From IMG/VR virus record IMGVR_UViG_2698536476_000008: 64,000 nucleotides of DNA; one strand, 5' to 3'. The translations under genes and the position numbers were made by a program. Under the pieces are notes generated by a model. It saw only the letters and a list, made by a program, of their open reading frames with translations, made no database searches and was not told where the DNA came from. Origin of the DNA: a virus (Duplodnaviria; Heunggongvirae; Uroviricota; Caudoviricetes). Of the stretch, positions 2,723 to 62,221 are shown piece by piece (positions within the stretch are counted from its first letter, which is position 1; each line of letters opens with the position of its first letter).

Positions 2723-4152
2723 TCCTCCTCATACGAAATATTAAAGGTGGAGTTTTCTGTATCCAGATAAACGAAATCGTAAAAGCCGTTGGACTCATTC
2801 CACTCGACAAATTCCAGATAAAAGTCGCGGAAATAACCCAGCGTTTCGATAAATGCCCAAACGTCTTTTTTCTTGATTAGGATGTACTTGCCGACACGGT
2901 TCGGATCAAAGAAAGTTGAGTCACGCCCAAATTTTGTTTCCAGTGCCGACTTCAGCTCATCAGTCACGTTCTCAATGGTCAGGCTTGCCGATATCCGCCC
3001 AGTGATGGTGATCTTAAAGGGGAGTTTTCTGACCTCTTTATACGAGAATTTCTTGTTCAACTCATTCGGCACCTTCTTAAAGGCAGCCAGGATCATTTCT
3101 TCAAGCTCTGACTGGCTTTTGTTTGGATGCCATCCTGAAATAAATATCTTATTGATATTCCGAACATTATAAGCACCATCTAATTTCTCTTGCTGGCCTT
3201 CGCCCCATGCCTTTACCCAGGACAGTCCCGGGATGTTACGCACCAGAAAATACGTATAGTCCCCGCCCCATACGACCTGATCATCATAGGCAAGGTAATA
3301 TTGTGCACGATTACGTGTGATCTCCGTTGTTTCGGCATCGGTACCTGCGGTTATGGGTGTCGTTGTCTTAACTGAAATCAAATTAGCTAAATTAGCCGCA
3401 GAATCGACAGGAGTCAGGTTTTGGCCAGCAACCAGGGTTATATCTCCGTTGGTGCACCATACCTTAAGTGTAATGGTCGAGCCTTCTGGCGGTATTTGCC
3501 CAATTAGCCCATCACCGAATCGAACCCCCAACTGCTCGGATGGCTTATAAAACTCAACGTAGACCTGGCTTTTACTACCGGCTAACCGGAACATAGTGCT
3601 GGAAGACCACTGCGTGGTCTTACCATCGGTCGTCACGAATACTTCCAGCTTATAGCAGACAGCAGTGAGAGCCTTTGATAACACGACTTCCAGAAATTCT
3701 TTGGCTGCCGTAACGGTATATGTCACCTCCTGGATTTCCAACTGTGCCACTTCTACCGTACCGGTGCCGTCAACCAACCTGCATACATCCATAGTCATGT
3801 AAGGGTACTGGTCGTCAGATATTAAAGGCATATTTTTGGGGATTACCGCTGGGGCATCTTCACTTGTGGCGGTGATCTCAATCATCCCCGATGACGGTGT
3901 TGGCTTGGTACCAACGTAACTATTCGTTTCTGCCGCTGCCAGGATAGAGGAACGCCGCGTCGCGGTCGATATAAAGCCTTCAGCCAGCGCCGCATCGGCA
4001 TACTGAAAGCACCTGTAGACAATCTGGGTAATAAACAATGTCAGCATCGAGACAAATTGAGAGCCGACAAACTTCGACCAGAATGAATCTTTCTCGACAA
4101 GCTCTTCAAACTCTGCACGAATACTGTCTTTAGTCGGTGTTGTTTTACTCAT
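2719..4152 (-). CDS. Baseplate J-like protein (477 aa)
   Basis: ORF track; size and position between wedge-like and fibre genes; overlaps neighbours by 4 bp. Confidence 0.45.
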   Translation of the reverse strand: MSKTTPTKDSIRAEFEELVEKDSFWSKFVGSQFVSMLTLFITQIVYRCFQYADAALAEGFISTATRRSSILAAAETNSYVGTKPTPSSGMIEITATSEDAPAVIPKNMPLISDDQYPYMTMDVCRLVDGTGTVEVAQLEIQEVTYTVTAAKEFLEVVLSKALTAVCYKLEVFVTTDGKTTQWSSSTMFRLAGSKSQVYVEFYKPSEQLGVRFGDGLIGQIPPEGSTITLKVWCTNGDITLVAGQNLTPVDSAANLANLISVKTTTPITAGTDAETTEITRNRAQYYLAYDDQVVWGGDYTYFLVRNIPGLSWVKAWGEGQQEKLDGAYNVRNINKIFISGWHPNKSQSELEEMILAAFKKVPNELNKKFSYKEVRKLPFKITITGRISASLTIENVTDELKSALETKFGRDSTFFDPNRVGKYILIKKKDVWAFIETLGYFRDFYLEFVEWNESNGFYDFVYLDTENSTFNISYEEE

Positions 4153-11420: not shown

Positions 11421-11589
11421 GTATTTTTAAGTCACGAATGCTATCTTTTCACATCATATTGACCTTTTAATCGTTCAGGCTTATAGTTCCGCCGTCGTAG
11501 CAAATTCTGCGACCGGGTTTAGCAGCCTGAATACTTACGCGGACAACCGCAGATTTCCGATATTGCGGTATTTTTGTGTCCGTAAACCA

Positions 11590-11670
11590 CGTTACGCCCG
11601 AATTATGGTGGGGCGTGATGGGGAGGCTTCGGCCTGCTGGTTTCGTAAGTGCCAGTCTGCTAACCCCGTC
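11590..11670 (+). ncRNA. Candidate c4-like immunity RNA (coordinates approximate)
   Basis: Block TATGGTGGGGCGTGATGGGGAGGCTTCGGCCTGCTGG conserved with 62083-62125, with compensatory changes around a TTCG-loop hairpin; sits between operator and icd as in P1 immI. Confidence 0.35.
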
Positions 11671-11732
11671 ACGTCCTGCCACCTGTTTAGCAGCGGGTCG
11701 CAGGTTGTTTATCAACTTACGAGGCCGTAACT

Positions 11733-15130: not shown

Positions 15131-15253
15131 TACAATCGTTGCGGGTGCTTGAGGCTATCTGCTTCAGGCATTACCCGAAAAGCAGATAGAAGAAAGCCCC
15201 AGATAACATCACGCGTCCTGCAAGACGCTTAACATTAATCTGAGGCCATATCT

Positions 15254-15460
15254 ATGCTTAGCATACGTAGATTAGCCTCTTACCGACCAAAAGGTCAAGG
15301 AGAAGTAGGCTATGAAGCAGCAAAAAGCGATGTTAATCGCTCTGATCGTCATCTGTTTAACCGTCATTGTGACGGCACTGGTAACGAGGAAAGACCTCTG
15401 CGAGGTACGAATCCGAACCGGCCAGACGGAGGTCACTGTCTTCACAGCCTACGAATCTGA
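15254..15460 (+). CDS. mok-like overlapping reading frame upstream of and overlapping hok
   Basis: 68-aa ORF in a different frame overlapping the hok-like gene, as in hok/mok/sok loci. Confidence 0.35.
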   Translation: MLSIRRLASYRPKGQGEVGYEAAKSDVNRSDRHLFNRHCDGTGNEERPLRGTNPNRPDGGHCLHSLRI

Positions 15461-28400: not shown

Positions 28401-29298
28401 GCACTGGAAAAACATTACTATTTATAAACTTTCTCGTGAGGCGGATCTGACCGACTTAGAAGATAAAAAGAAAATGATCCTTTTCACGCCATGCGGTAGT
28501 CAGGATATGGCCAAGTTCGGTTTTGTATCTCCATTTGGTGATAATTCCGAAGTTATCGCTATGCATGGAAATGGTTTTATCCTTGTTGAAGCAAAGCGCG
28601 AAACAAAAATTCTTCCCCCGCCGGTTATCCAGCGAGCTATTCAAGAAAAAATTGAAAAACTTGAGCAAGAACAAGCGCGTAAACTGAAGAAAACAGAGAA
28701 GGACTCCCTGAAAGACGAAGTTCTGCATTCTCTTCTGCCACGGGCTTTTTCAAAGTTTTCTGTTATCCAGGCGATCTACGACGGTTCAACTAAACGTATC
28801 TATATCAATGCCAGCGCGCGGCAGGCAGAGGATATGCTCGCGCTTATGCGTAAGTCTCTGGGTTCTCTTCCTGTTGTTCCCCTGAGTGTTGAAAATCCCA
28901 TTGAATTAACGCTGACCGACTGGGTACGTGATGGTAGTGCTCCACAGGGATTTCAAATGGGGGATGCGGCAGAACTTAAGGCAGTGCTTGAGGATGGCGG
29001 TATTGCCCGAGTGAAAAAGCAGGATTTGGGAAGCGATGAAATTTCCACACACCTGGAAGCTGGCAAGCTCGTTACTAAGTTGGCACTCGACTGGCAGAAC
29101 CGCATTAAATTTACACTGGACCATAACTTCAGCCTTACCAGCGTCAAATTTGCGGATGAATTGCTTGAGCAGAACTCTGATATTGATAGTGAAGATGTTG
29201 CGCAGCGACTGGACGCAGATTTCTTCCTGTTGACCAGTGAAATTTCGTGCCTGGTTGATGCTCTGGTAAATGCCCTTGGTGGAGAGGCTAAGCAGTGA
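28393..29298 (+). CDS. hrdC: RdgC-like recombination-associated protein
   Basis: RdgC-like length and pattern from ATG 28393; directly upstream of dmt as in P1. Confidence 0.7.
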
Positions 29299-31313
29299 AA
29301 GAGCTGTGCTATGGATCTGTTTGCAGTGGAATTGAAGCCGCGAGTATTGCCTGGGAACCGTTGGGTATGCGTCCGGCGTGGTTTGCTGAAATCGAGCCTT
29401 TTCCATCTGCCGTTCTTGCGCACCGCTGGCCCCATGTCGCCAACCTTGGCGACATGACAAAACTTGCCAAAAAAGTCCTGGCTGGGGAAATCGAATCCCC
29501 TGATGTGCTCGTCGGGGGTACGCCTTGTCAGGCATTCAGTATCGCGGGCTTACGTGGTGGGCTTGATGATGAACGCGGCGCGCTAACTTTGAAGTATGTG
29601 GAGCTTGCAAATGCAATTGACGACAAACGGTCTGAGTCCTTCCTCAAACCGACAGTTATCGTCTGGGAAAATGTCCCAGGAGTCCTGTCATCGGCAGATA
29701 ACGCCTTCGGATGTTTCCTTGCCGGATTGGCTGGAGAAGATGCGCCATTTGAACCAGGTGATCGACCTGAATCAGGAAAAAGTAACGCGTTCTGGCGGTG
29801 GGATGGCAAAACCGGTTGCCATGCTCCAAAGTGGCCGCAGTGTGGTTGTATTTATGGACCGCAGCGAAAGGTGGCCTGGAGAATCCTTGATGCCCAATAC
29901 TTCGGAGTGGCACAACGACGCCGACGCGTGTTTGTTGTCGCAAGTGCTCGAACAGACCTCGATCCCGCAACGGTACTTTTTGAGTTCGAAGGCGTGCGCC
30001 GGAATATTGCGCCGAGCAGAGGCGAGGGGAAGGAAACTACCAGATATACTTCAAACATCGCTATCAGATCTTGCGATGATACAAACATAGTTGCCATGGC
30101 ACATGGGCAAGGAGGGGCTGAGATAAAAACCGATAATTCGGCACCAACTTTGACATGTAACCATGAAGCACCAATTGTATTGCTCGTCGACGGTAGAATG
30201 CGCCGTCTTATCCCTGTCGAATGTGAAAGGCTGCAAGGTTTTCCTGATGGACATACATTGATCCCTACGGAAAAGCGTAAAAAAGTTTCTTCAGATGAAC
30301 TGGCATACCTTCGCAAAAACTATCCTGATTTGAGCGAAGAAGAGGCCGCGATGCTTGCAGCTGACGGACCGCGTTACAAAGCGATCGGCAATAGTATGGC
30401 GATACCAGTAATGCGCTGGATTGGCGATCGGATTGCCAAGGCTGCATGTCGGCAGAAGGAAGGGAGTGAAACAAAAGAGCGAAAAGTTAAACCAGCGGCA
30501 GAATTCGAACGGTCCATATTCAAATGGGCTGGTGGAAAATTTGGTGTTCTGGAACAAATCTTTCGCTATTTGCCAGAAGGGAAGCGCCTGATTGAGCCTT
30601 TCGTTGGTGGCGGAGCTGTCTTCATGAATGCCGGATACCAGGAAAATCTGCTAAATGATGTGAATGCTGACCTGATTAACTTTTACAAGACTCTGCAACG
30701 CGAGGCGCATTCACTTATCACTCTGGCACATCGTTTCTTCCAGGACTACAACACGCAGGAAGGATACCTGGCAGTACGGAATGCGTTTAACAAACAAGTC
30801 TATGATGATTTACATCGCGCAGCGGCGTTTTTGTTCCTGAACCGACATTGTTTTAACGGATTGACGCGTTACAACCAAGCCGGTGAGTTCAATGTCGGTT
30901 ATGGGAAGTATAAAACTCCGTATTTCCCATTGCAGGAGATGGAAGCCTTCCTTGGTGCGGAAGGGCGTTCTGAGTTTGTATGTGGTGATTTTGCTGCGGT
31001 GATTGAAGCTGCCGGAGAAGGAGATGTCATCTTTTGTGATCCGCCGTATGAACCGCTCCCAAATACAGAGGGATTCACGAACTATTCCGGTCATGACTTT
31101 AAGTTTGAAGAGCAAAAACGCCTGGCGTCTCTGTTGACGGATGCTCATCGCCGAGGTGCAAAGGTTCTCATTACTAACAGTGGCGCGCCAAACATCAGAG
31201 AACTTTATCAGGACAGTGGCTTCAGAGTGGAACCTCTTTTTGCCAGACGTTCTGTGTCTTGTAAGGGGGACACTCGAGGTGTTGCTCATGACGTTATAGC
31301 AATATTGCTCTAA
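29295..31313 (+). CDS. dmt: Bifunctional DNA methyltransferase (C5-cytosine domain fused to Dam-like N6-adenine domain)
   Basis: GTG start overlapping hrdC stop; [12 protein letters not shown] and ENVPG (C5-MTase) in N-half; FKWAGGK and DPPY (N6-adenine MTase) in C-half. Confidence 0.85.
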
Positions 31314-31331
31314 TAAATTTATTAGTGTAAT
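31304..31331. promoter_or_regulatory. Bipartite (inverted, overlapping) C1-operator-like site
   Basis: ATTGCTCTAATAAATTT followed by inverted half AAATTTATTAGTGTAAT; overlaps dmt stop. Confidence 0.65.
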
Positions 31332-31497
31332 ATCGCATCAATGAATCGTGATTTATAGAGCGATTTAGCTGTTAGCCGCGACAGGCGCGGCGGCAAGTAT
31401 GGCGGGGTAGTGACTCCTTCCCCCTCATGACGCCGAGTTGCCAGGTTGACCATACGCCTAAGTGGCAACACCGAAGTGCGTTACGAGCTTCCAGTTT
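31321..31497 (+). ncRNA. Candidate small RNA between operator and terminator (speculative)
   Basis: About 175-nt non-coding segment bounded by C1-operator-like site and a terminator; contains TATGGCGGGG resembling the c4-like block. Confidence 0.25.
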
Positions 31498-31523
31498 GCC
31501 CATCTTCGGGTGGGCGTTTTTTT
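31498..31523 (+). terminator. Rho-independent terminator
   Basis: GCCCA-TCTTCGGG-TGGGC followed by T7. Confidence 0.6.
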
Positions 31524-31704
31524 CAGGGTTTTCGTCATGGTTAGCGACTTTGCGGCGGTTTAGAAACTGACCATTAAAGTAAATGCAAACGATGATCTGA
31601 TGATGGTAGCGGCATAAGAAGCCAGACGCCACGGGGTATGAGTCGTCCCCCGTCAAAAAATCGACCGCAGAGTGTCCCCGTCTGTGTATTAGGGAACGGG
31701 GAGG

Positions 31705-31785
31705 CACAACAGGTAAGGGCGCTGGTGTGATTAACCAGATGAACGAGAAGGGGCCATCTGTTGGTCAGCGTCCTTTCCTGTTGCG
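31705..31785 (+). repeat. Long-stem hairpin element E
   Basis: Arms CACAACAGGTAAGGGCGCTG / CAGCGTCCTTTCCTGTTGCG with about 41-nt loop, followed by TCTTCTTTTC. Confidence 0.55.
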
Positions 31786-31988
31786 TCTTCTTTTCAGCGT
31801 AACAGCGGTGCTTAACAGCACTTTGGGTACAGTTCCACGAATTTACGGGTATATCCCGTCATGCTGAAAGCGCTAATCACGCTGGAAGCCAGGGTTATGC
31901 ATCCCCTGTTACCGAATTGCAGCCAGGGCGCGGTGCGCCGAAAAGCATACGGAGGTGGAAGCCCTCGCCGGAGACGTACCCGGCAAGT

Positions 31989-32064
31989 GATGGTGTAGCT
32001 CAGCGGTTAGAGCGGTTGACTGTTAATCAACGGGTCGATGGTTCAAATCCATCCACCATCGCCA
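31989..32064 (+). tRNA. tRNA-Asn (anticodon GTT)
   Basis: Cloverleaf by eye: acceptor GATGGTG/CACCATC, anticodon loop CTGTTAA, T-arm GGTTCAAATCC, encoded CCA. Confidence 0.9.
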
Positions 32065-32066
32065 AT

Positions 32067-32142
32067 GCCGGTTTAGCTCAGTTGGTAGAGCGCCTGCCTT
32101 GTAAGCAGGATGTCAGCGGTTCGATTCCGTTAATCGGCACCA
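32067..32142 (+). tRNA. tRNA-Thr (anticodon TGT)
   Basis: Acceptor GCCGGTT/AATCGGC, anticodon loop CTTGTAA, T-arm GGTTCGATTCC, encoded CCA. Confidence 0.9.
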
Positions 32143-32143
32143 G

Positions 32144-32230
32144 CACAACAGGTAAGGGTATTTTGCGACGTCGGAGATCGCCGAGCTTGGCAGAGGGTTC
32201 GAATCCCTACGAAGTACCCTTACCGTTGTG
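32144..32230 (+). repeat. Long-stem hairpin element A enclosing a T-arm-like motif
   Basis: 16-bp stem CACAAC(A)GGTAAGGGTA / TACCCTTACCGTTGTG enclosing 54 nt that include GGGTTCGAATCCC; starts 2 nt after tRNA-Thr. Confidence 0.55.
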
Positions 32231-32350
32231 ATGAATGCGCAGGCTGATGCGCGAAAGACATTGCAGCTATTGCGGAAAAGAGCTGTTCGGCGGGGCAATT
32301 AAACGCCCGTGAGAGTCTGAAATAACCGCAAGCCGGAGATCAGCACCGGT

Positions 32351-32429
32351 CATCACAACACAACAGGTAAGGGCATTCTCCCTTATGGGGCTTGGCTTAA
32401 ATGCATCGAGTGCTCTTACCGTTGTGATG
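32351..32429 (+). repeat. Long-stem hairpin element B
   Basis: Arms CATCACAACACAACAGGTAAGGGC / GCTCTTACCGTTGTGATG. Confidence 0.55.
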
Positions 32430-32567
32430 AAGTGCAGCTCTTTGAAGCAACCAGAAGATAAGCATCTGGCTTCACAACATAAACCGCAGGAACGACCAAT
32501 AAACGGTAGTCCGTATGGAGAACACCCCGTTGAGGAAGAGGCCTGGCCGGAACCGTAACCGGCACTA

Positions 32568-32657
32568 CAACGTTGAGAACACTGGCGTAACGGGGTCATA
32601 TCCCAATCTACGAATAAATGTTGCGTTGCAGCGTGACAACCAGTGTTCTCAACATTG
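32568..32657 (+). repeat. Long-stem hairpin element C
   Basis: Perfect 14-bp stem GTTGAGAACACTGG / CCAGTGTTCTCAAC enclosing about 54 nt with GGGGTCATATCCC; tail ATTGTGGTGAATGCACAGGCTGATG. Confidence 0.55.
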
Positions 32658-32840
32658 TGGTGAATGCACAGGCTGATGTGCCGCAACTACAGTAGTGCGC
32701 GCTTTGCGGGGCTTGCTACAACCCTGTGTCGGAGTTCAGCACCGACCATCACAGTTTGATTCTCTGGCATGAGCATAACGCTGAAATAAGTCCAGCCTGG
32801 TGCGGCCCGATCACCCGCCGTTAGCTCCACGAAACGGAGC

Positions 32841-32923
32841 ACGTAACAGGTAAGAGCATTCTCCTGTAACGGGTTCATATCCCAATCTACAGGTCCACCA
32901 AGAATGCTCTTTCCGTTGCGGTG
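32841..32923 (+). repeat. Long-stem hairpin element D
   Basis: Arms ACGTAACAGGTAAGAGCATTCT / AGAATGCTCTTTCCGTTGCGGTG enclosing GGGTTCATATCCC. Confidence 0.55.
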
Positions 32924-33070
32924 AATGCGGCTAAGCGCACGCGGGGAAATGGTTATATCAGTCCATTCATTTCTCCTTGTTTCCCCGTCCACGGTGGATA
33001 ACCAGCCAAAGGACACCGGGAGGCACCCGGCACCGCAGCTTTTTTATTCGTTAAATAATGGAGTGAGAGG

Positions 33071-33307
33071 ATGCAGAACAATTCGAACAAATGTCGAACG
33101 CTATGGGTGCGGTTATATATTTATGCCGTCCTCTGTTTGATTGTGTCACTGGTTCTGTATGTTTGGCTTTTGCCAAATATGATCTCATCTAACAGCACAA
33201 TACTTGTATTGTTGGGAGTCCTTCTCGCGCTCATTTACCCGGCTTTCGCAGTAGTCTTTTTTCGTGAAAAAACCAGGAAATTAATTAATGAAAAAAACGT
33301 TGATTAG
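33071..33307 (+). CDS. Small two-TM membrane protein (78 aa)
   Basis: Hydrophobic segments; overlaps start of SPFH gene. Confidence 0.5.
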   Translation: MQNNSNKCRTLWVRLYIYAVLCLIVSLVLYVWLLPNMISSNSTILVLLGVLLALIYPAFAVVFFREKTRKLINEKNVD

Positions 33308-34115
33308 TGCAGCGATTATTTTGGGTTCTTTATGTCTGACCGGATGCGATCGGGTAGAGCCAGGTAACGTAGGGATCAAAGTAAATAAGCTGGGGGATGA
33401 TAAAGGTATCGGTGAAGTAGTTGGCGTTGGTCGCTACTGGACAGGCTTGAATACTGAAGTTTATATCTTCCCGACCTTTAAGCAAATGAAGACATACGAT
33501 GAGCCGTTCAGCTTCCAGATGAGCGACGGAACAACCATTGGTTACCACATCGGCGTAGCCTACAAGGTTGATCCAGCAAAAGTCACAACGGTATTTCAGA
33601 CCTATCGCAAAGGTGTAGATGATATTACTGATACCGATCTACGCCAGAAGGTTGCAGATGCTCTGAACCGGTTAGCCAGCAAAATGACCACCGACAAATT
33701 TATCGACGGTGGCAAATCTGAATTGCTTGATGCAGCCCTTAAAGACATTCAGGAAGAAATGACGCCAATCGGCATTCAGGTGATGAGCCTCTCTTATGTA
33801 GGTAAGCCAGAATACCCGCCAACAGTTATTGACAGTATTAACGCCAAAGTCACGGCAAACCAAAAAACCCTGCAACGCGAGCAAGAGGTCAAACAACGTG
33901 AAGCAGAGGCCAACATGCTGCGCGCGGAAGCTGCCGGACAGGCTGATGCTATTCGCACAAAAGCCCAGGCCGAAGCTGATGCCATTCGTTTACGTGGTGA
34001 AGCTCTGCGCCAGAACCCCGGTGTTATGGAGTTGGAAGCGATCAACAAATGGAACGGTACATTACCGCAGTATATGACCAGTAATACCGCTGTTCCGTTT
34101 GTTCCGGTGAAATAA
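33288..34115 (+). CDS. SPFH/band-7-like lipoprotein (275 aa)
   Basis: Signal peptide with lipobox LTGC; C-terminal Ala/Glu/Arg/Gln-rich coiled coil; family assignment by pattern only. Confidence 0.55.
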   Translation: MKKTLISAAIILGSLCLTGCDRVEPGNVGIKVNKLGDDKGIGEVVGVGRYWTGLNTEVYIFPTFKQMKTYDEPFSFQMSDGTTIGYHIGVAYKVDPAKVTTVFQTYRKGVDDITDTDLRQKVADALNRLASKMTTDKFIDGGKSELLDAALKDIQEEMTPIGIQVMSLSYVGKPEYPPTVIDSINAKVTANQKTLQREQEVKQREAEANMLRAEAAGQADAIRTKAQAEADAIRLRGEALRQNPGVMELEAINKWNGTLPQYMTSNTAVPFVPVK

Positions 34116-61903: not shown

Positions 61904-62069
61904 TGTTTTTTAGCTACCGATGTTACATTGAACCTGACCTCTTGCGCCTTGAGGCATTTTCGGTTTATGCTTATCAGGCACCTCATTAAAACGGGTGCCG
62001 GGATTGGCCTCCCGCTTAAGTCTAAGGCGATACAGACGCCGCTCGCGTCTTTTTTTGTATCGGCGTACA

Positions 62070-62150
62070 CGCACACCTCTACAATGGTGGGCTGTATGGG
62101 GCTACCTTCGGGTAGGCTGGTTACCTTGGACGCCAGTAAGGCCAACTCCG
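62070..62150 (+). ncRNA. Candidate c4-like immunity RNA, second copy (coordinates approximate)
   Basis: AATGGTGGGCTGTATGGGGCTACCTTCGGGTAGGCTGG conserved with 11604-11645. Confidence 0.35.
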
Positions 62151-62221
62151 TACAGTCCACCGCCAGCAAGATTGGTCTCTTCTGCGGTGGTTACATACCA
62201 ACGTCTAAGGAGGCTGCCAAT

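What the first reader, a model, noticed from the sequence alone, without database searches (positions are those of the whole stretch)
31705..32923. Family of five long-stem hairpin elements interleaved with the tRNA genes
Five elements (31705-31785, 32144-32230, 32351-32429, 32568-32657, 32841-32923) share arms close to CACAACAGGTAAGGG / CCCTTACCGTTGTG with 14-20 bp stems around 37-54 nt cores. Four are followed by a tail close to GTTGYGRTGAAKGC, three of these with a downstream GGCT; spacers between units also repeat (CGGAGNTCAGCACCG..CATCACA). The stretch from 31321 to 33070 has no convincing protein-coding gene. They could be a processed structured-RNA family, decayed tRNA duplications, or palindromic mobile units.
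Basis: seen in the sequence. Interest (0 to 1): 0.8.

Follow-up and report, generated by a model that had tools for sequence, protein, structure and literature searches.

The report
Conserved stalk-loop RNA modules in phages
The five hairpins are real copies of a widespread, uncatalogued structured-RNA module that temperate enterobacterial phages (P1, lambda and many prophages) place in their non-coding operon leaders, most likely as RNase III cutting sites, and some carry tRNA-like caps whose function is unknown.

Summary
Five + strand hairpins (31700-31790, 32144-32230, 32350-32430, 32563-32662, 32839-32922) fold far better than shuffles (z -4.8 to -8.0). They share a 19-23 bp stalk.

They lie in the non-coding leader of the C1-repressed P1 ban operon. 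There they alternate with tRNA-Asn, tRNA-Thr and sRNA-like modules resembling the DicF upstream region and STnc100/PasD.

They belong to a large family. A covariance model built only from lambdoid prophage copies ranks the five as its top five hits in the 64 kb window.
- Elements 4 and 5 have homologues in more than 120 viral contigs and in 2,810 of 5,426 complete E. coli genomes, including K-12 e14.
- Element 2 and 3 caps recur in other phages under different, compensating stalks.
- Phage lambda carries a copy 5 nt after tR' in its late leader. RNase III processing sites were reported for the lambda late transcript in 1988, but I could not read that paper.

Covariation is strong (92-94% paired against 32-59% when slid). 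Rfam has no matching family.

Best reading: RNase III processing stalks that cut flanking tRNAs and sRNAs out of read-through transcripts (inferred). Some caps resemble tRNA parts (initiator anticodon arm; D/T elbow). A decoy role is possible but untested.

The parts
31288..31333 (+). P2ban/P1ban promoters and the bivalent C1 operator Op72ab. This is the start of the ban-operon transcript that carries the array.
   Evidence: Mapped from the P1 annotation AF234172 (locus coordinate + 29801 = window coordinate). The palindrome 31299-31336 is repeat I3.
31428..31529 (+). 'dicF-like region' of P1, homologous to the sequence upstream of dicF in the Qin prophage. It ends in an intrinsic terminator at 31497-31516 followed by a T run.
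   Evidence: P1 misc_feature. Qin sequence L130:6680-6780 read. Terminator scan.
31700..31790 (+). Element 1: stalk of about 22 bp (6+7+9) plus an upper 12-bp helix. This cap type was seen only in P1/D6-like phages.
   Evidence: Fold -46.1 kcal/mol, z -5.9. Model R1 scores 25.0 bits, E 5e-5, stalk only. The cap pattern occurs in 111 viral contigs, and the D6 copy differs on both arms at facing positions, which I judged compensatory by eye, not by a formal count.
31989..32064 (+). tRNA-Asn (GTT)
   Evidence: ARAGORN; Rfam tRNA 74.5 bits.
32067..32142 (+). tRNA-Thr (TGT). Its CCA end lies 1 nt before the stalk of element 2.
   Evidence: ARAGORN; Rfam 73.4 bits; sequence.
32144..32230 (+). Element 2: 21-bp stalk (6+15). 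The cap has a D-arm-like hairpin GCGA-CGUCGGAGA-UCGC (32165-32181) and a canonical T-arm-like hairpin GGG-UUCGAAU-CCC (32194-32208).
   Evidence: Fold -42.7 kcal/mol, z -5.3. Alignment A3 of 12 homologues: 12 of 20 stalk pairs change on both sides, 92.4% of cells paired against 32-59% when slid. R1 scores 20.7 bits.
32224..32360 (+). Spacer module A (GTTGTGATGAATGCGCAGGCTGATGCGC ... CCGGAGATCAGCACCGGTCATCACAAC). It is 98% identical to a segment of lambdoid early-leader RNAs, and its ends can pair with each other.
   Evidence: Matches to mEp460 and Stx phages. Repeat I2 in L005.
32350..32430 (+). Element 3: 23-bp stalk (10+13, with a 6-nt bulge). The cap is UCCCUUAUGGGGCUUGGCUUAAAUGCA.
   Evidence: Fold -37.8 kcal/mol, z -5.7. 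The cap stays invariant under three different stalks in other phages (fold). R1 scores 19.8 bits.
32547..32562 (+). Small hairpin CCGG-AACCGUAA-CCGG that abuts element 4.
   Evidence: Sequence. It is the recurrent upstream context of element-4 homologues.
32563..32662 (+). Element 4: 22-bp stalk (8+14). P2 hairpin at 32587-32611 with GGG-GUCAUAU-CCC, and P3 hairpin at about 32619-32638.
   Evidence: Fold -49.2 kcal/mol, z -8.0. R1, built without any P1 sequence, scores 34.8 bits, E 4.8e-8 on the + strand against 21.8 bits on the - strand. Alignment A2 covariation.
32650..32755 (+). Spacer module B, which has the same ends as module A (GGTGAATGCACAGGCTGATGTGC ... CGGAGTTCAGCACCGACCATCACAG).
   Evidence: Direct-repeat families D1 and D2.
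32824..32840 (+). Small hairpin GCUCC-ACGAAAC-GGAGC that abuts element 5.
   Evidence: Sequence. Recurrent context.
32839..32922 (+). Element 5: stalk of 19-21 bp. P2 hairpin at 32866-32890 with GGG-UUCAUAU-CCC. There is no P3.
   Evidence: Fold -35.4 kcal/mol, z -4.8. R1 scores 38.3 bits, E 3.8e-9 on the + strand against 9.4 bits on the - strand.
32917..33047 (+). STnc100/PasD-like module closed by UGCGGUG/CACCGCA, followed by a U tract. It overlaps the last bases of the 3' arm of element 5.
   Evidence: Rfam RF02076, 37.8 bits against a gathering score of 47, E 3.4e-6. Homologous modules lie before dicB in Qin and in e14.

Best explanation
Each element is a 'stalk-and-cap' RNA module transcribed on the + strand as part of the long non-coding leader of the C1-repressed ban operon. 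A 19-23 bp double-stranded stalk carries a small conserved multi-helix cap.

The modules sit directly after other stable RNAs: a tRNA, an intrinsic terminator or a small hairpin. Proposed mechanism: when RNA polymerase reads through the leader, RNase III cuts both strands of each stalk. This separates the tRNAs and the DicF-/STnc100-like sRNA modules from one another and from the downstream mRNA. It also sets their 3' and 5' ends and releases the capped hairpins as RNAs of roughly 45-80 nt.

Shown here: the structures, the family, the covariation, the strand and the positional rule. Inferred: the RNase III cleavage and its consequences. Unknown: what the conserved caps do once released.
For: 1. 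Structure. All five fold far better than shuffles, and better on the + strand than the - strand.

2. Family. Model R1, built from 16 lambdoid prophage copies only, ranks the five elements as its top five loci in 64 kb (38.3, 34.8, 25.0, 20.7 and 19.8 bits; the next locus scores 15.2). R1 also hits lambda, e14, Qin and D6.

3. Covariation.
- Alignment A2 (28 sequences): 93.8% of cells paired against 40-56% when slid. 14 of 22 pairs change on both sides. Covariation score 0.407 against 0.174 shuffled, 0 of 500 shuffles as high.
- Alignment A3 (12 sequences): 92.4% against 32-59%. 12 of 20 stalk pairs change on both sides.
- The element-3 cap is invariant under three different stalks.

4. Spread. 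2,810 of 5,426 complete E. coli genomes. 1,022 plasmid records carry all or part of the P1 array.

5. Context. Every copy examined lies in a transcribed operon leader and in the sense orientation: the P1 ban leader, the leader downstream of cI-type repressors, and the lambda late leader 5 nt after tR'.

6. Positional rule.
- 84 of 139 distinct element-4/5-type contexts follow a T run, and 6 follow a tRNA end.
- 30 of 44 element-3-type contexts follow a T run, and 6 a tRNA end.
- 25 of 48 element-2-type contexts follow a tRNA end.

7. RNase III fit.
- The stalks are 19-23 bp. RNase III accommodates about 22 bp of dsRNA (PMC6212723).
[quoted passage not shown] 1988, cited in PMC7547250).
Against: - No cleavage data were available for any of the five elements.
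- I could not read Daniels et al. 1988, so placing their RNase III sites in the lambda family hairpin is inference.
Processing therefore cannot be the whole function.
- The stalk sequence CACAACAGGTAAGRGC is more conserved than pairing alone requires.
- A strong terminator at 31497-31516 lies between Pban and the array, so expression depends on read-through or on an unseen promoter. The scan found none in 31200-33200.
Confidence: 0.55

Rival explanations
1. The main function lies in the caps. They would be tRNA-part mimics, an initiator-tRNA anticodon arm in elements 4 and 5 and a D-loop/T-loop elbow in element 2. Made early in lytic growth, they would bind or titrate a tRNA-recognising factor such as an anticodon nuclease of the VapC type, MetRS, the 30S P site/IF3, RNase P or TruB/TrmA. 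That would make them RNA decoys or regulators, with the stalk serving only as scaffold or release device. This can coexist with RNase III processing.
For: - Most lambdoid copies carry CGGGCUCAUAACCC. This matches 14 consecutive nt of the anticodon stem-loop of the E. coli tRNA gene CGCGGGG...TCGGGCTCATAACCCGA... That gene is present at 100% identity in all 5,426 genomes. That it is the initiator tRNA is from my own knowledge.
- GGG/CCC and CAU are invariant in alignment A2.
- The element-2 cap is a 4-bp stem with a 9-nt loop containing GG, plus GGG-UUCGAAU-CCC. It is invariant under 12 diverged stalks, and its T-arm abuts the 3' stalk strand as in a tRNA acceptor/T minihelix.
- Further family members carry two T-loop hairpins.
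- Real tRNAs occupy neighbouring slots: Asn and Thr here, Tyr in Ro157c2, Ser in D6.
- Expression is early lytic, from a repressor-controlled promoter.
Against: - In a census that did not fix the loop sequence, positions 37/38 vary: AA in 48 of 65 contexts, UC in 12, and a few others. The P1 copies have AU. A pyrimidine at position 37 is not tRNA-like, and the VapC cut site between positions 38 and 39 is not conserved.
- The e14 copy has UUAAUAA instead.
- The caps of elements 1 and 3 and of lambda show no tRNA resemblance.
- The Rfam tRNA and YrlA models and ARAGORN do not score any element.
- No binding or phenotype data exist.
Confidence: 0.2
2. The elements are cis-acting leader structures that work without cleavage. 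They would stabilise or insulate neighbouring RNAs against exonucleases or RNase E, tune translation of the first downstream gene, or modify elongation in the way HK022 put RNA does.
For: - They sit immediately before the ribosome-binding region of the first gene in lambdoid early leaders.
- They lie in leaders that contain terminators which must be read through.
- The loop CUCAUAA could pair with a UUAUG start region. This is weak 5-nt complementarity that I noted by eye in two loci.
Against: - P1 carries five copies, most of them far from any start codon.
- The lambda copy lies after tR' and about 320 nt before S.
- The put sites of HK022 are V-shaped two-hairpin RNAs of about 70 nt at transcript starts (PMC9378689). 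Model R1 finds nothing at E<0.01 in HK022 24-31 kb.
- The family hairpins form only after the upstream terminator has been transcribed, so they cannot prevent termination there.
Confidence: 0.1
3. The elements are DNA-level features, namely palindromic mobile or recombination modules (MITE/REP/ERIC-like, or attC-like folded sites) that shuffle cassettes. Any RNA structure would be incidental.
For: - Different caps share the same arms, and the same cap occurs with different arms.
- Recombinant arrays exist. There is an element-4/5 chimera in L078. Classical P1 lacks spacer A and element 3. tRNA-Tyr and tRNA-Ser are inserted in relatives.
- The arm ends ..AAC / GTT.. recall integron attC core sites (from my own knowledge).
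Against: - All copies have one orientation relative to transcription.
- G-U pairs make the + strand RNA fold consistently stronger (U-G in 17 of 28 sequences at one A2 pair).
- Model R1 scores elements 4 and 5 far higher on the + strand.
- There are no copies elsewhere in the window, and the median is one place per E. coli genome.
- The caps are under strong purifying selection.
- The shuffling is explained by ordinary homologous recombination between repeats.
Confidence: 0.05
4. The region encodes the - strand proteins annotated in P1 as Plp and Upl, and the repeats are coding repeats.
For: P1 and RCS47 records annotate plp and upl here. ORFs of 139 and 109 aa exist at 32267-32686 and 32687-33016 on the - strand.
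Against: - Neither ORF has a Pfam match.
- The ORF boundaries differ between P1 and RCS47 (378 against 420 nt).
- The region carries large indels and rearrangements among relatives.
- Substitutions are compensatory across RNA stems.
- Most RefSeq plasmid records list no gene here, though that gene table is incomplete.
Confidence: 0.03
5. The elements are decaying pseudogene remnants of duplicated tRNA genes with no present function.
For: T-arm-like and anticodon-arm-like pieces occur. A truncated tRNA-fMet-like gene that shares the sequence CCCAATCC exists in one genome (L242).
Against: - The caps are identical or nearly so across phages whose stalks have diverged with compensating changes.
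- Copies are found in more than half of complete E. coli genomes.
- Neutral decay would not preserve 20-bp stalks.
Confidence: 0.04

Closest known systems
Phage lambda late-leader hairpin just after tR' (J02459 44,786-44,864), and the RNase III processing sites of the lambda late transcript (Daniels et al. 1988, Virology 167:568)
   Same: It has the same stalk sequence as the P1 elements (GCACAACAGGTAAGAGCA ... TGCTCTTTCCGTTGTGC). Model R1 hits it at 20.5 bits. It has the same position rule, directly after a terminator in a read-through leader. It is followed by a module that D6 carries inside one of its own elements.
   Different: The cap sequence is different. Lambda has a single copy in the late (pR') leader, whereas P1 has five copies in an early repressor-controlled leader interleaved with tRNAs. 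That the published RNase III sites lie in this hairpin is unverified here.
RNase III processing stalks that release stable RNAs: the rrn operon 16S/23S stalks, the metY-nusA leader and T7 R1.1-type sites (from established knowledge)
   Same: Helices of about 20 bp or more flank or follow tRNA/rRNA-type RNAs in polycistronic precursors. Cleavage separates the neighbours.
   Different: In those sites the loop is the product itself (rRNA) or is unconserved. Here a small, strongly conserved cap sits on the stalk, and the element is a portable module reused with different caps.
The dicB operon with DicF (RF00039)
   Same: Lambdoid copies of the element-4/5 type start in the U tract of a DicF-like terminator hairpin (28.5 bits in e14). 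The P1 leader contains the region found upstream of dicF. DicF maturation is reported to involve RNase III (reference cited).
   Different: The hairpins are not DicF. In Qin itself DicF is followed by an STnc100-like module, and the family hairpin lies upstream at L130:6578-6665.
STnc100 / PasD prophage sRNAs (RF02076; bioRxiv 10.64898/2026.05.13.724894)
   Same: They begin GGUGAAUGCG and are closed by a terminal helix made from sequence adjoining two stalks.
   Different: This is a neighbouring module, not the hairpins. The scores fall below Rfam's gathering threshold (37.8 and 29.2 against 47).
Bacterial Y RNA YrlA (RF02553): a long stem plus a tRNA-like domain
   Same: Element 2 pairs a long closing stem with D-arm-like and T-arm-like hairpins, which is a tRNA-elbow look-alike.
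   Different: The arm order is native (D then T), not permuted. There is no Ro-binding motif, no rsr gene nearby and no YrlA model hit on any element.
tRNA anticodon-arm mimics in mRNA operators, for example the thrS operator (from established knowledge)
   Same: A leader RNA displays an anticodon-stem-loop look-alike, here the initiator-type GGG/CCC stem with CAU.
   Different: No cognate synthetase gene lies downstream. Loop positions 37/38 are not conserved. The element is repeated and portable.

Membership tests
Stalk-and-cap leader hairpin family (defined here; lambdoid, lambda, e14 and P1 copies) | Significant score against a structure-plus-sequence model built without the candidate sequences | tested here: met
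   Model R1, built from 16 lambdoid copies: element 5 scores 38.3 bits (E 3.8e-9), element 4 34.8 (4.8e-8), element 1 25.0 (5e-5), element 2 20.7 (1e-3) and element 3 19.8 (2e-3). The best unrelated locus scores 15.2 bits. E-values are rough because calibration was shortened.
Stalk-and-cap leader hairpin family | Stalk base pairs maintained by compensatory change across homologues | tested here: met
   A2: 14 of 22 pairs change on both sides, 93.8% paired against 40-56% when slid. A3: 12 of 20 stalk pairs change on both sides, 92.4% against 32-59%.
Stalk-and-cap leader hairpin family | Sense orientation inside a non-coding operon leader, directly after a terminator, tRNA or small hairpin | tested here: met
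   P1 ban leader. Element 2 starts 1 nt after the tRNA-Thr CCA end, and elements 4 and 5 abut small hairpins.
RNase III substrate | Roughly two helical turns (about 20-22 bp) of near-continuous dsRNA | tested here: met
   Predicted stalks of 22, 21, 23, 22 and 19-21 bp. The 22-bp figure comes from PMC6212723.
RNase III substrate | rnc-dependent cleavage with staggered 2-nt 3' overhangs, in vivo or in vitro | not testable with these tools
   No RNA-end data were available. The lambda precedent is known to me only by the title of the paper.
tRNA (RF00005 / ARAGORN) | Cloverleaf recognised by tRNA models | tested here: not met
   Only the Asn, Thr and Met(CAT) genes are found. No tRNA hit on any element even at E<=10, and none on the double-T-loop relative.
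Initiator-tRNA anticodon-arm mimic | Three G-C pairs closing a 7-nt loop with U33, a CAU anticodon and a purine at position 37 | tested here: inconclusive
   GGG/CCC and UCAU are invariant, and there is a 14-nt identity to the E. coli tRNA gene. But positions 37/38 are AA in 48 of 65 contexts and UC in 12, and AU in the P1 copies.
STnc100 (RF02076) | Score at or above Rfam's gathering threshold (47 bits) | tested here: not met
   37.8 bits at 32917-33037. This concerns the module after element 5, not the hairpins.
YrlA Y RNA (RF02553) | Model match, Ro-binding stem and rsr neighbourhood | tested here: not met
   The only YrlA hit (27 bits against a gathering score of 69) spans the two real tRNAs. 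There is none on the elements.
HK022 put antiterminator RNA | Two-hairpin V-shaped RNA of about 70 nt near the transcript start, homologous to putL/putR | tested here: not met
   The architecture differs (PMC9378689). Model R1 finds no hit at E<0.01 in HK022 24,000-31,000.
REP/ERIC/MITE-type dispersed palindromes | Many dispersed copies in both orientations in intergenic DNA | tested here: not met
   The arm pattern occurs only inside the array. The median is 1 place and the maximum 5 per E. coli genome. The contexts examined were prophage or phage leaders.
Integron attC site | R''/L''-L'/R' core sites with extrahelical bases, used by a nearby IntI integrase | not tested
   Only a loose AAC...GTT resemblance was noted. 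No integrase search was done. The RNA-strand asymmetry argues against it.

The most novel reading that the evidence does not exclude
The conserved caps are tRNA-part mimics: the initiator anticodon arm in elements 4/5 and their lambdoid homologues, and a D/T-loop elbow in element 2 and its homologues. RNase III would release them from early phage transcripts, and they would act as RNA decoys or inhibitors of host tRNA-recognising factors, for example tRNA-cleaving abortive-infection nucleases. That would make them a widespread RNA-based counter-defence or host-takeover device. It would be present in more than half of E. coli genomes and in phage lambda, yet has gone unnoticed.
Probability: 0.15. 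Interest if true: 0.85.

Novelty: new variant of a known kind. Interest (0 to 1): 0.62.

Why it matters
1. It re-annotates a stretch of P1 long listed as the genes plp and upl, and similarly ymfH in K-12 e14, as an array of structured RNA modules.

2. It links the P1 ban leader, lambdoid early leaders, the dicBF region and the lambda late leader into one construction kit. The parts are tRNAs, DicF-like and STnc100/PasD-like sRNAs, and stalk-and-cap hairpins. This gives a concrete model for how sRNAs and tRNAs are freed from antiterminated or read-through transcripts.

3. The family is common but absent from Rfam, so genome annotation pipelines miss it.

4. The caps are more conserved than a processing site needs, and two cap types resemble tRNA parts. 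That makes a specific, testable question about phage RNA mimicry of tRNA.

Tried and rejected
- **Rfam.** Searched at gathering and relaxed thresholds on the window, mEp460, e14, the lambda late leader and L011. No family covers the hairpins. The microRNA hits only reflect long hairpins.
- **Relaxed tRNA search.** ARAGORN on the window and on five related loci finds only real tRNAs.
- **BLAST of single elements.** Finds almost only P1-likes. The wider family appeared only through cap-motif scans.
- **Genome-contig scan with the 18-mer.** Mostly chance or coding hits outside Enterobacterales. It is usable only as a list of enterobacterial genera.
- **HK022 put idea.** Rejected.
- **svsR/C0293 and the Pas sRNA papers.** They concern neighbouring sRNAs, not the hairpins.
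- **RNase III target papers.** No supplementary tables are held as text, and the main texts do not mention e14.
- **P1 genome paper and Daniels 1988.** Neither is readable here.
- **Crude inverted-repeat count.** Not discriminating.
- **MAFFT alignment of all cap types together.** Unusable.
- **Cap loop pairing with the downstream start codon.** Only 5-nt matches seen by eye, so dropped.
Full report
**1.

The window is a P1-type phage-plasmid, about 98.5% identical to RCS47 and vB_EcoM-813R1 across this stretch. RNAfold gives outer pairs at 31700-31790, 32144-32230, 32350-32430, 32563-32662 and 32839-32922. The energies are -35 to -49 kcal/mol, the z-scores are -4.8 to -8.0, and no shuffle of 200 folds as well.

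Every element folds 3-12 kcal/mol better as + strand RNA than as its complement. This is the signature of G-U pairs. The shared 5' arm occurs five times in the window, all in the array, against 0.74 expected. The repeated tail and spacer sequences are also real. Plain inverted repeats of this size are common in shuffled sequence. The case therefore rests on energy, shared arms and comparative data.

**2. Setting**

The classical P1 record was mapped onto the window. The stretch begins at the C1-controlled promoters P1ban/P2ban and operator Op72 (31288-31333). It runs through a 'dicF-like region' that ends in a strong terminator (31497-31516). Then come element 1, tRNA-Asn and tRNA-Thr, elements 2-5 and two repeated spacer modules. 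It finishes with an STnc100-like module (37.8 bits, below Rfam's threshold of 47), just before the first + strand genes. Those genes are a 78-aa membrane ORF and an SPFH lipoprotein.

The array is therefore the leader of the repressor-controlled ban operon. P1 records place two - strand ORFs here, plp and upl. They have no Pfam match, their extent differs between records, and they overlap covarying RNA stems. I regard them as mis-annotations.

**3. The elements belong to a large family**

*Elements 4 and 5.* Their cap (CGGGNUCAUAWCCCAAUC) has more than 120 viral-contig matches, and the scan stopped at its cap. A lambdoid copy is found in 2,810 of 5,426 complete E. coli genomes, including the e14 prophage of K-12 under 'ymfH'. 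These copies share three parts:
- a long stalk;
- a P2 helix ending in GGG-YUCAUNN-CCC;
- a variable P3 hairpin.

In a 28-sequence alignment, 93.8% of cells pair, against 40-56% when the partner column is slid. 14 of 22 pairs change on both sides, and no shuffle of 500 reaches the covariation score. Some copies have entirely different stalk sequences, for example ACATTCGACTGGGCA/TGCTCAGCCGAATGT.

*Element 2.* Its cap recurs in a Uetakevirus (BUCT554) and in many prophages, again under compensating stalks. 12 of 20 stalk pairs change on both sides, and 92.4% pair against 32-59% when slid.

*Element 3.* Its 30-nt cap is invariant under three different stalks.

*Element 1.* This cap was seen only in P1/D6-like phages. 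The D6 copy differs on both arms at facing positions, which I judged compensatory by eye.

*Independent test.* A covariance model built from 16 lambdoid copies alone ranks the five P1 elements as the five best loci in the whole 64-kb window. It strongly prefers the + strand for elements 4 and 5. Rfam 15 has no family for any of them.

**4. Lambda has one too**

Element-3-type copies in contigs of about 40 kb led to the lambda late region. In lambda itself (J02459), 5 nt after the tR' terminator of the 6S RNA, lies GCACAACAGGTAAGAGCA-[40-nt cap]-AGTGCTCTTTCCGTTGTGC at 44,786-44,864. It has the P1 stalk sequence, folds at -33.2 kcal/mol, and is hit by the model at 20.5 bits.

**5. A modular kit with a positional rule**

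In lambdoid early leaders downstream of cI-type repressors the order is:
1. a family hairpin;
2. an STnc100/PasD-like module beginning GGUGAAUGCG and closed by GUUGUGGUG/CACCACAAC;
3. a DicF-like hairpin-terminator (28.5 bits in e14);
4. the element-4/5-type hairpin, whose 5' arm starts in the terminator's U tract;
5. the first gene.

Qin carries the same parts around dicF.

Across distinct contexts the hairpins follow other stable RNAs:

| Cap type | Distinct contexts | After a T run | After a tRNA end |
|---|---|---|---|
| Element 4/5 | 139 | 84 | 6 |
| Element 3 | 44 | 30 | 6 |
| Element 2 | 48 | 6 | 25 |

The P1 copies of elements 4 and 5 abut small hairpins instead.

The same stalk carries different caps, and the same cap sits on different stalks. 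Recombinant arrays are common. Classical P1 lacks spacer A and element 3. L078 is an element-4/5 chimera. Relatives have tRNA-Tyr or tRNA-Ser inserted.

**6. Most likely mechanism**

The stalks are 19-23 bp, the length RNase III accommodates (about 22 bp; PMC6212723). They sit exactly where a read-through or antiterminated transcript would need cutting to free an upstream tRNA or terminator-ended sRNA.

Two literature anchors exist, though I could confirm only their titles. RNase III processing sites were mapped in vivo in the lambda late transcript (Daniels et al. 1988, cited). [quoted passage not shown] 1990, cited).

I therefore propose that each stalk is an RNase III site. Cleavage would release the tRNAs, the sRNA-like spacers and the capped hairpins. 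The leftover half-stalks of the spacers can pair to form the terminal helix modelled in STnc100. The structure, family, strand and position are shown. The cleavage is inferred.

**7. The caps**

The caps are more conserved than the stalks, which a mere processing site does not require.

*Elements 4/5 type.* Most lambdoid copies read CGGGCUCAUAACCC. This matches 14 consecutive nt of the anticodon arm of an E. coli tRNA gene present in all 5,426 genomes. That this gene is the initiator tRNA is from my own knowledge. A census that did not fix the loop shows that CUCAU and the three G-C pairs are conserved. Positions 37/38 are not: AA in 48 of 65 contexts and UC in 12, and AU in the P1 copies. The mimicry is therefore suggestive, not strict.

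*Element 2 type.* The cap is a 4-bp stem with a 9-nt GG-containing loop plus a canonical GGG-UUCGAAU-CCC hairpin that abuts the 3' stalk strand. This is the layout of a tRNA elbow without an anticodon arm. It is invariant, so covariation cannot test it.

*Others.* Some family members carry two T-loop hairpins. No tRNA or Y-RNA model scores any element.

A decoy or regulator role for the released caps is the most interesting reading that remains open. I give it about 15%.

**8. Rivals**

I rate each of the following well below the RNase III reading, and the reasons are set out under the rival explanations:
- cis-acting structures that work without cleavage;
- DNA-level mobile or recombination palindromes;
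- coding sequence (plp/upl);
- neutral tRNA remnants.

**9. Verdict**

The finding is real. The five hairpins are new members of a common but uncatalogued phage leader-RNA family, one member of which sits in lambda's late leader. The kind of element, an RNase III processing hairpin next to stable RNAs, is known. Three features are not known for such sites: the portable stalk-and-cap design, the array with tRNAs and sRNA modules, and the tRNA-like caps. I therefore class it as a new variant of a known kind, with interest 0.62.

**10. Limits**

- No transcript or cleavage data were available.
- Two key papers were not readable.
- The cap-motif scans are biased toward the motifs used.
- The model's E-values are rough.

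Noticed in passing
window 15143-15317; 11481-11533; 11601-11686; 61978-62055; 62080-62167: Rfam gathering-level hits to the sok antitoxin RNA, two C4 antisense RNAs, the a1/b1 C4 targets and an isrK-like RNA. These are the expected P1 immunity and addiction RNAs.
   Followed up: no
window 33071-34115: Classical P1 has tciA/tciB/tciC here. This phage instead has a 78-aa membrane ORF and an SPFH/Band-7 lipoprotein (Pfam E 9.7e-31), as in RCS47.
   Followed up: partly
window 32267-33016 (- strand); L128:2321-2632 (K-12 e14 ymfH): Annotated or annotatable ORFs (P1 plp/upl, e14 ymfH) lie on top of conserved, covarying RNA modules. Those in the window have no Pfam match. They are probably not genes.
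   Followed up: partly
L242:3655-3725 and L250:~1530-1725: L242 has a tRNA-fMet-like gene that lacks the variable loop and T arm (...GTCGGGCTCATAACCCAATCCTGCTCCCGCAACCA). It shares CCCAATCC with the phage cap. L250 has a partial tRNA-fMet copy beside an intact one, as at a prophage attachment site. Both may bear on the origin of the cap.
   Followed up: partly
window 31530-31557; many loci, e.g. L252, L257, L365: A further conserved leader module, UUUUCGUCANRGUURGCGACUUUGCGG, recurs shortly after terminators or after family hairpins in P1 and in lambdoid contigs. Its function is unknown.
   Followed up: no
L011:2810-2940; L017:7939-8069: Larger family members (131 nt) have caps that hold two T-loop-type hairpins (UUCGAUU / UUCAAUY). 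They occupy the first hairpin slot of lambdoid early leaders. No tRNA model hit.
   Followed up: partly
L078:~3755-3870; L001 (classical P1) 2337-2440; L113, L400; L003:1765-1851; L004:2607-2693: The array is recombinationally plastic. L078 fuses the 5' half of element 4 to the 3' half of element 5. Classical P1 lacks spacer A and element 3. L113 and L400 place element 3 directly after tRNA-Thr. Ro157c2 has gained tRNA-Tyr and D6 has gained tRNA-Ser(UGA).
   Followed up: partly
L130:6578-6665 (K-12 Qin) and L004:1401-1488 (D6): The covariance model detects extra family hairpins (18.8 and about 19 bits). One lies upstream of the dicF-upstream module in Qin, and the other upstream of the first terminator in D6.
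   Followed up: no
window 32225-32234 / 32349-32358 / 32421-32430: GUUGUGAUGA at the 3' foot of a stalk is complementary both to its own 5' arm and to UCAUCACAAC in front of the next element. Neighbouring stalks and the spacer's terminal helix are therefore mutually exclusive pairings. This may matter for folding order or for the released sRNA.
   Followed up: partly
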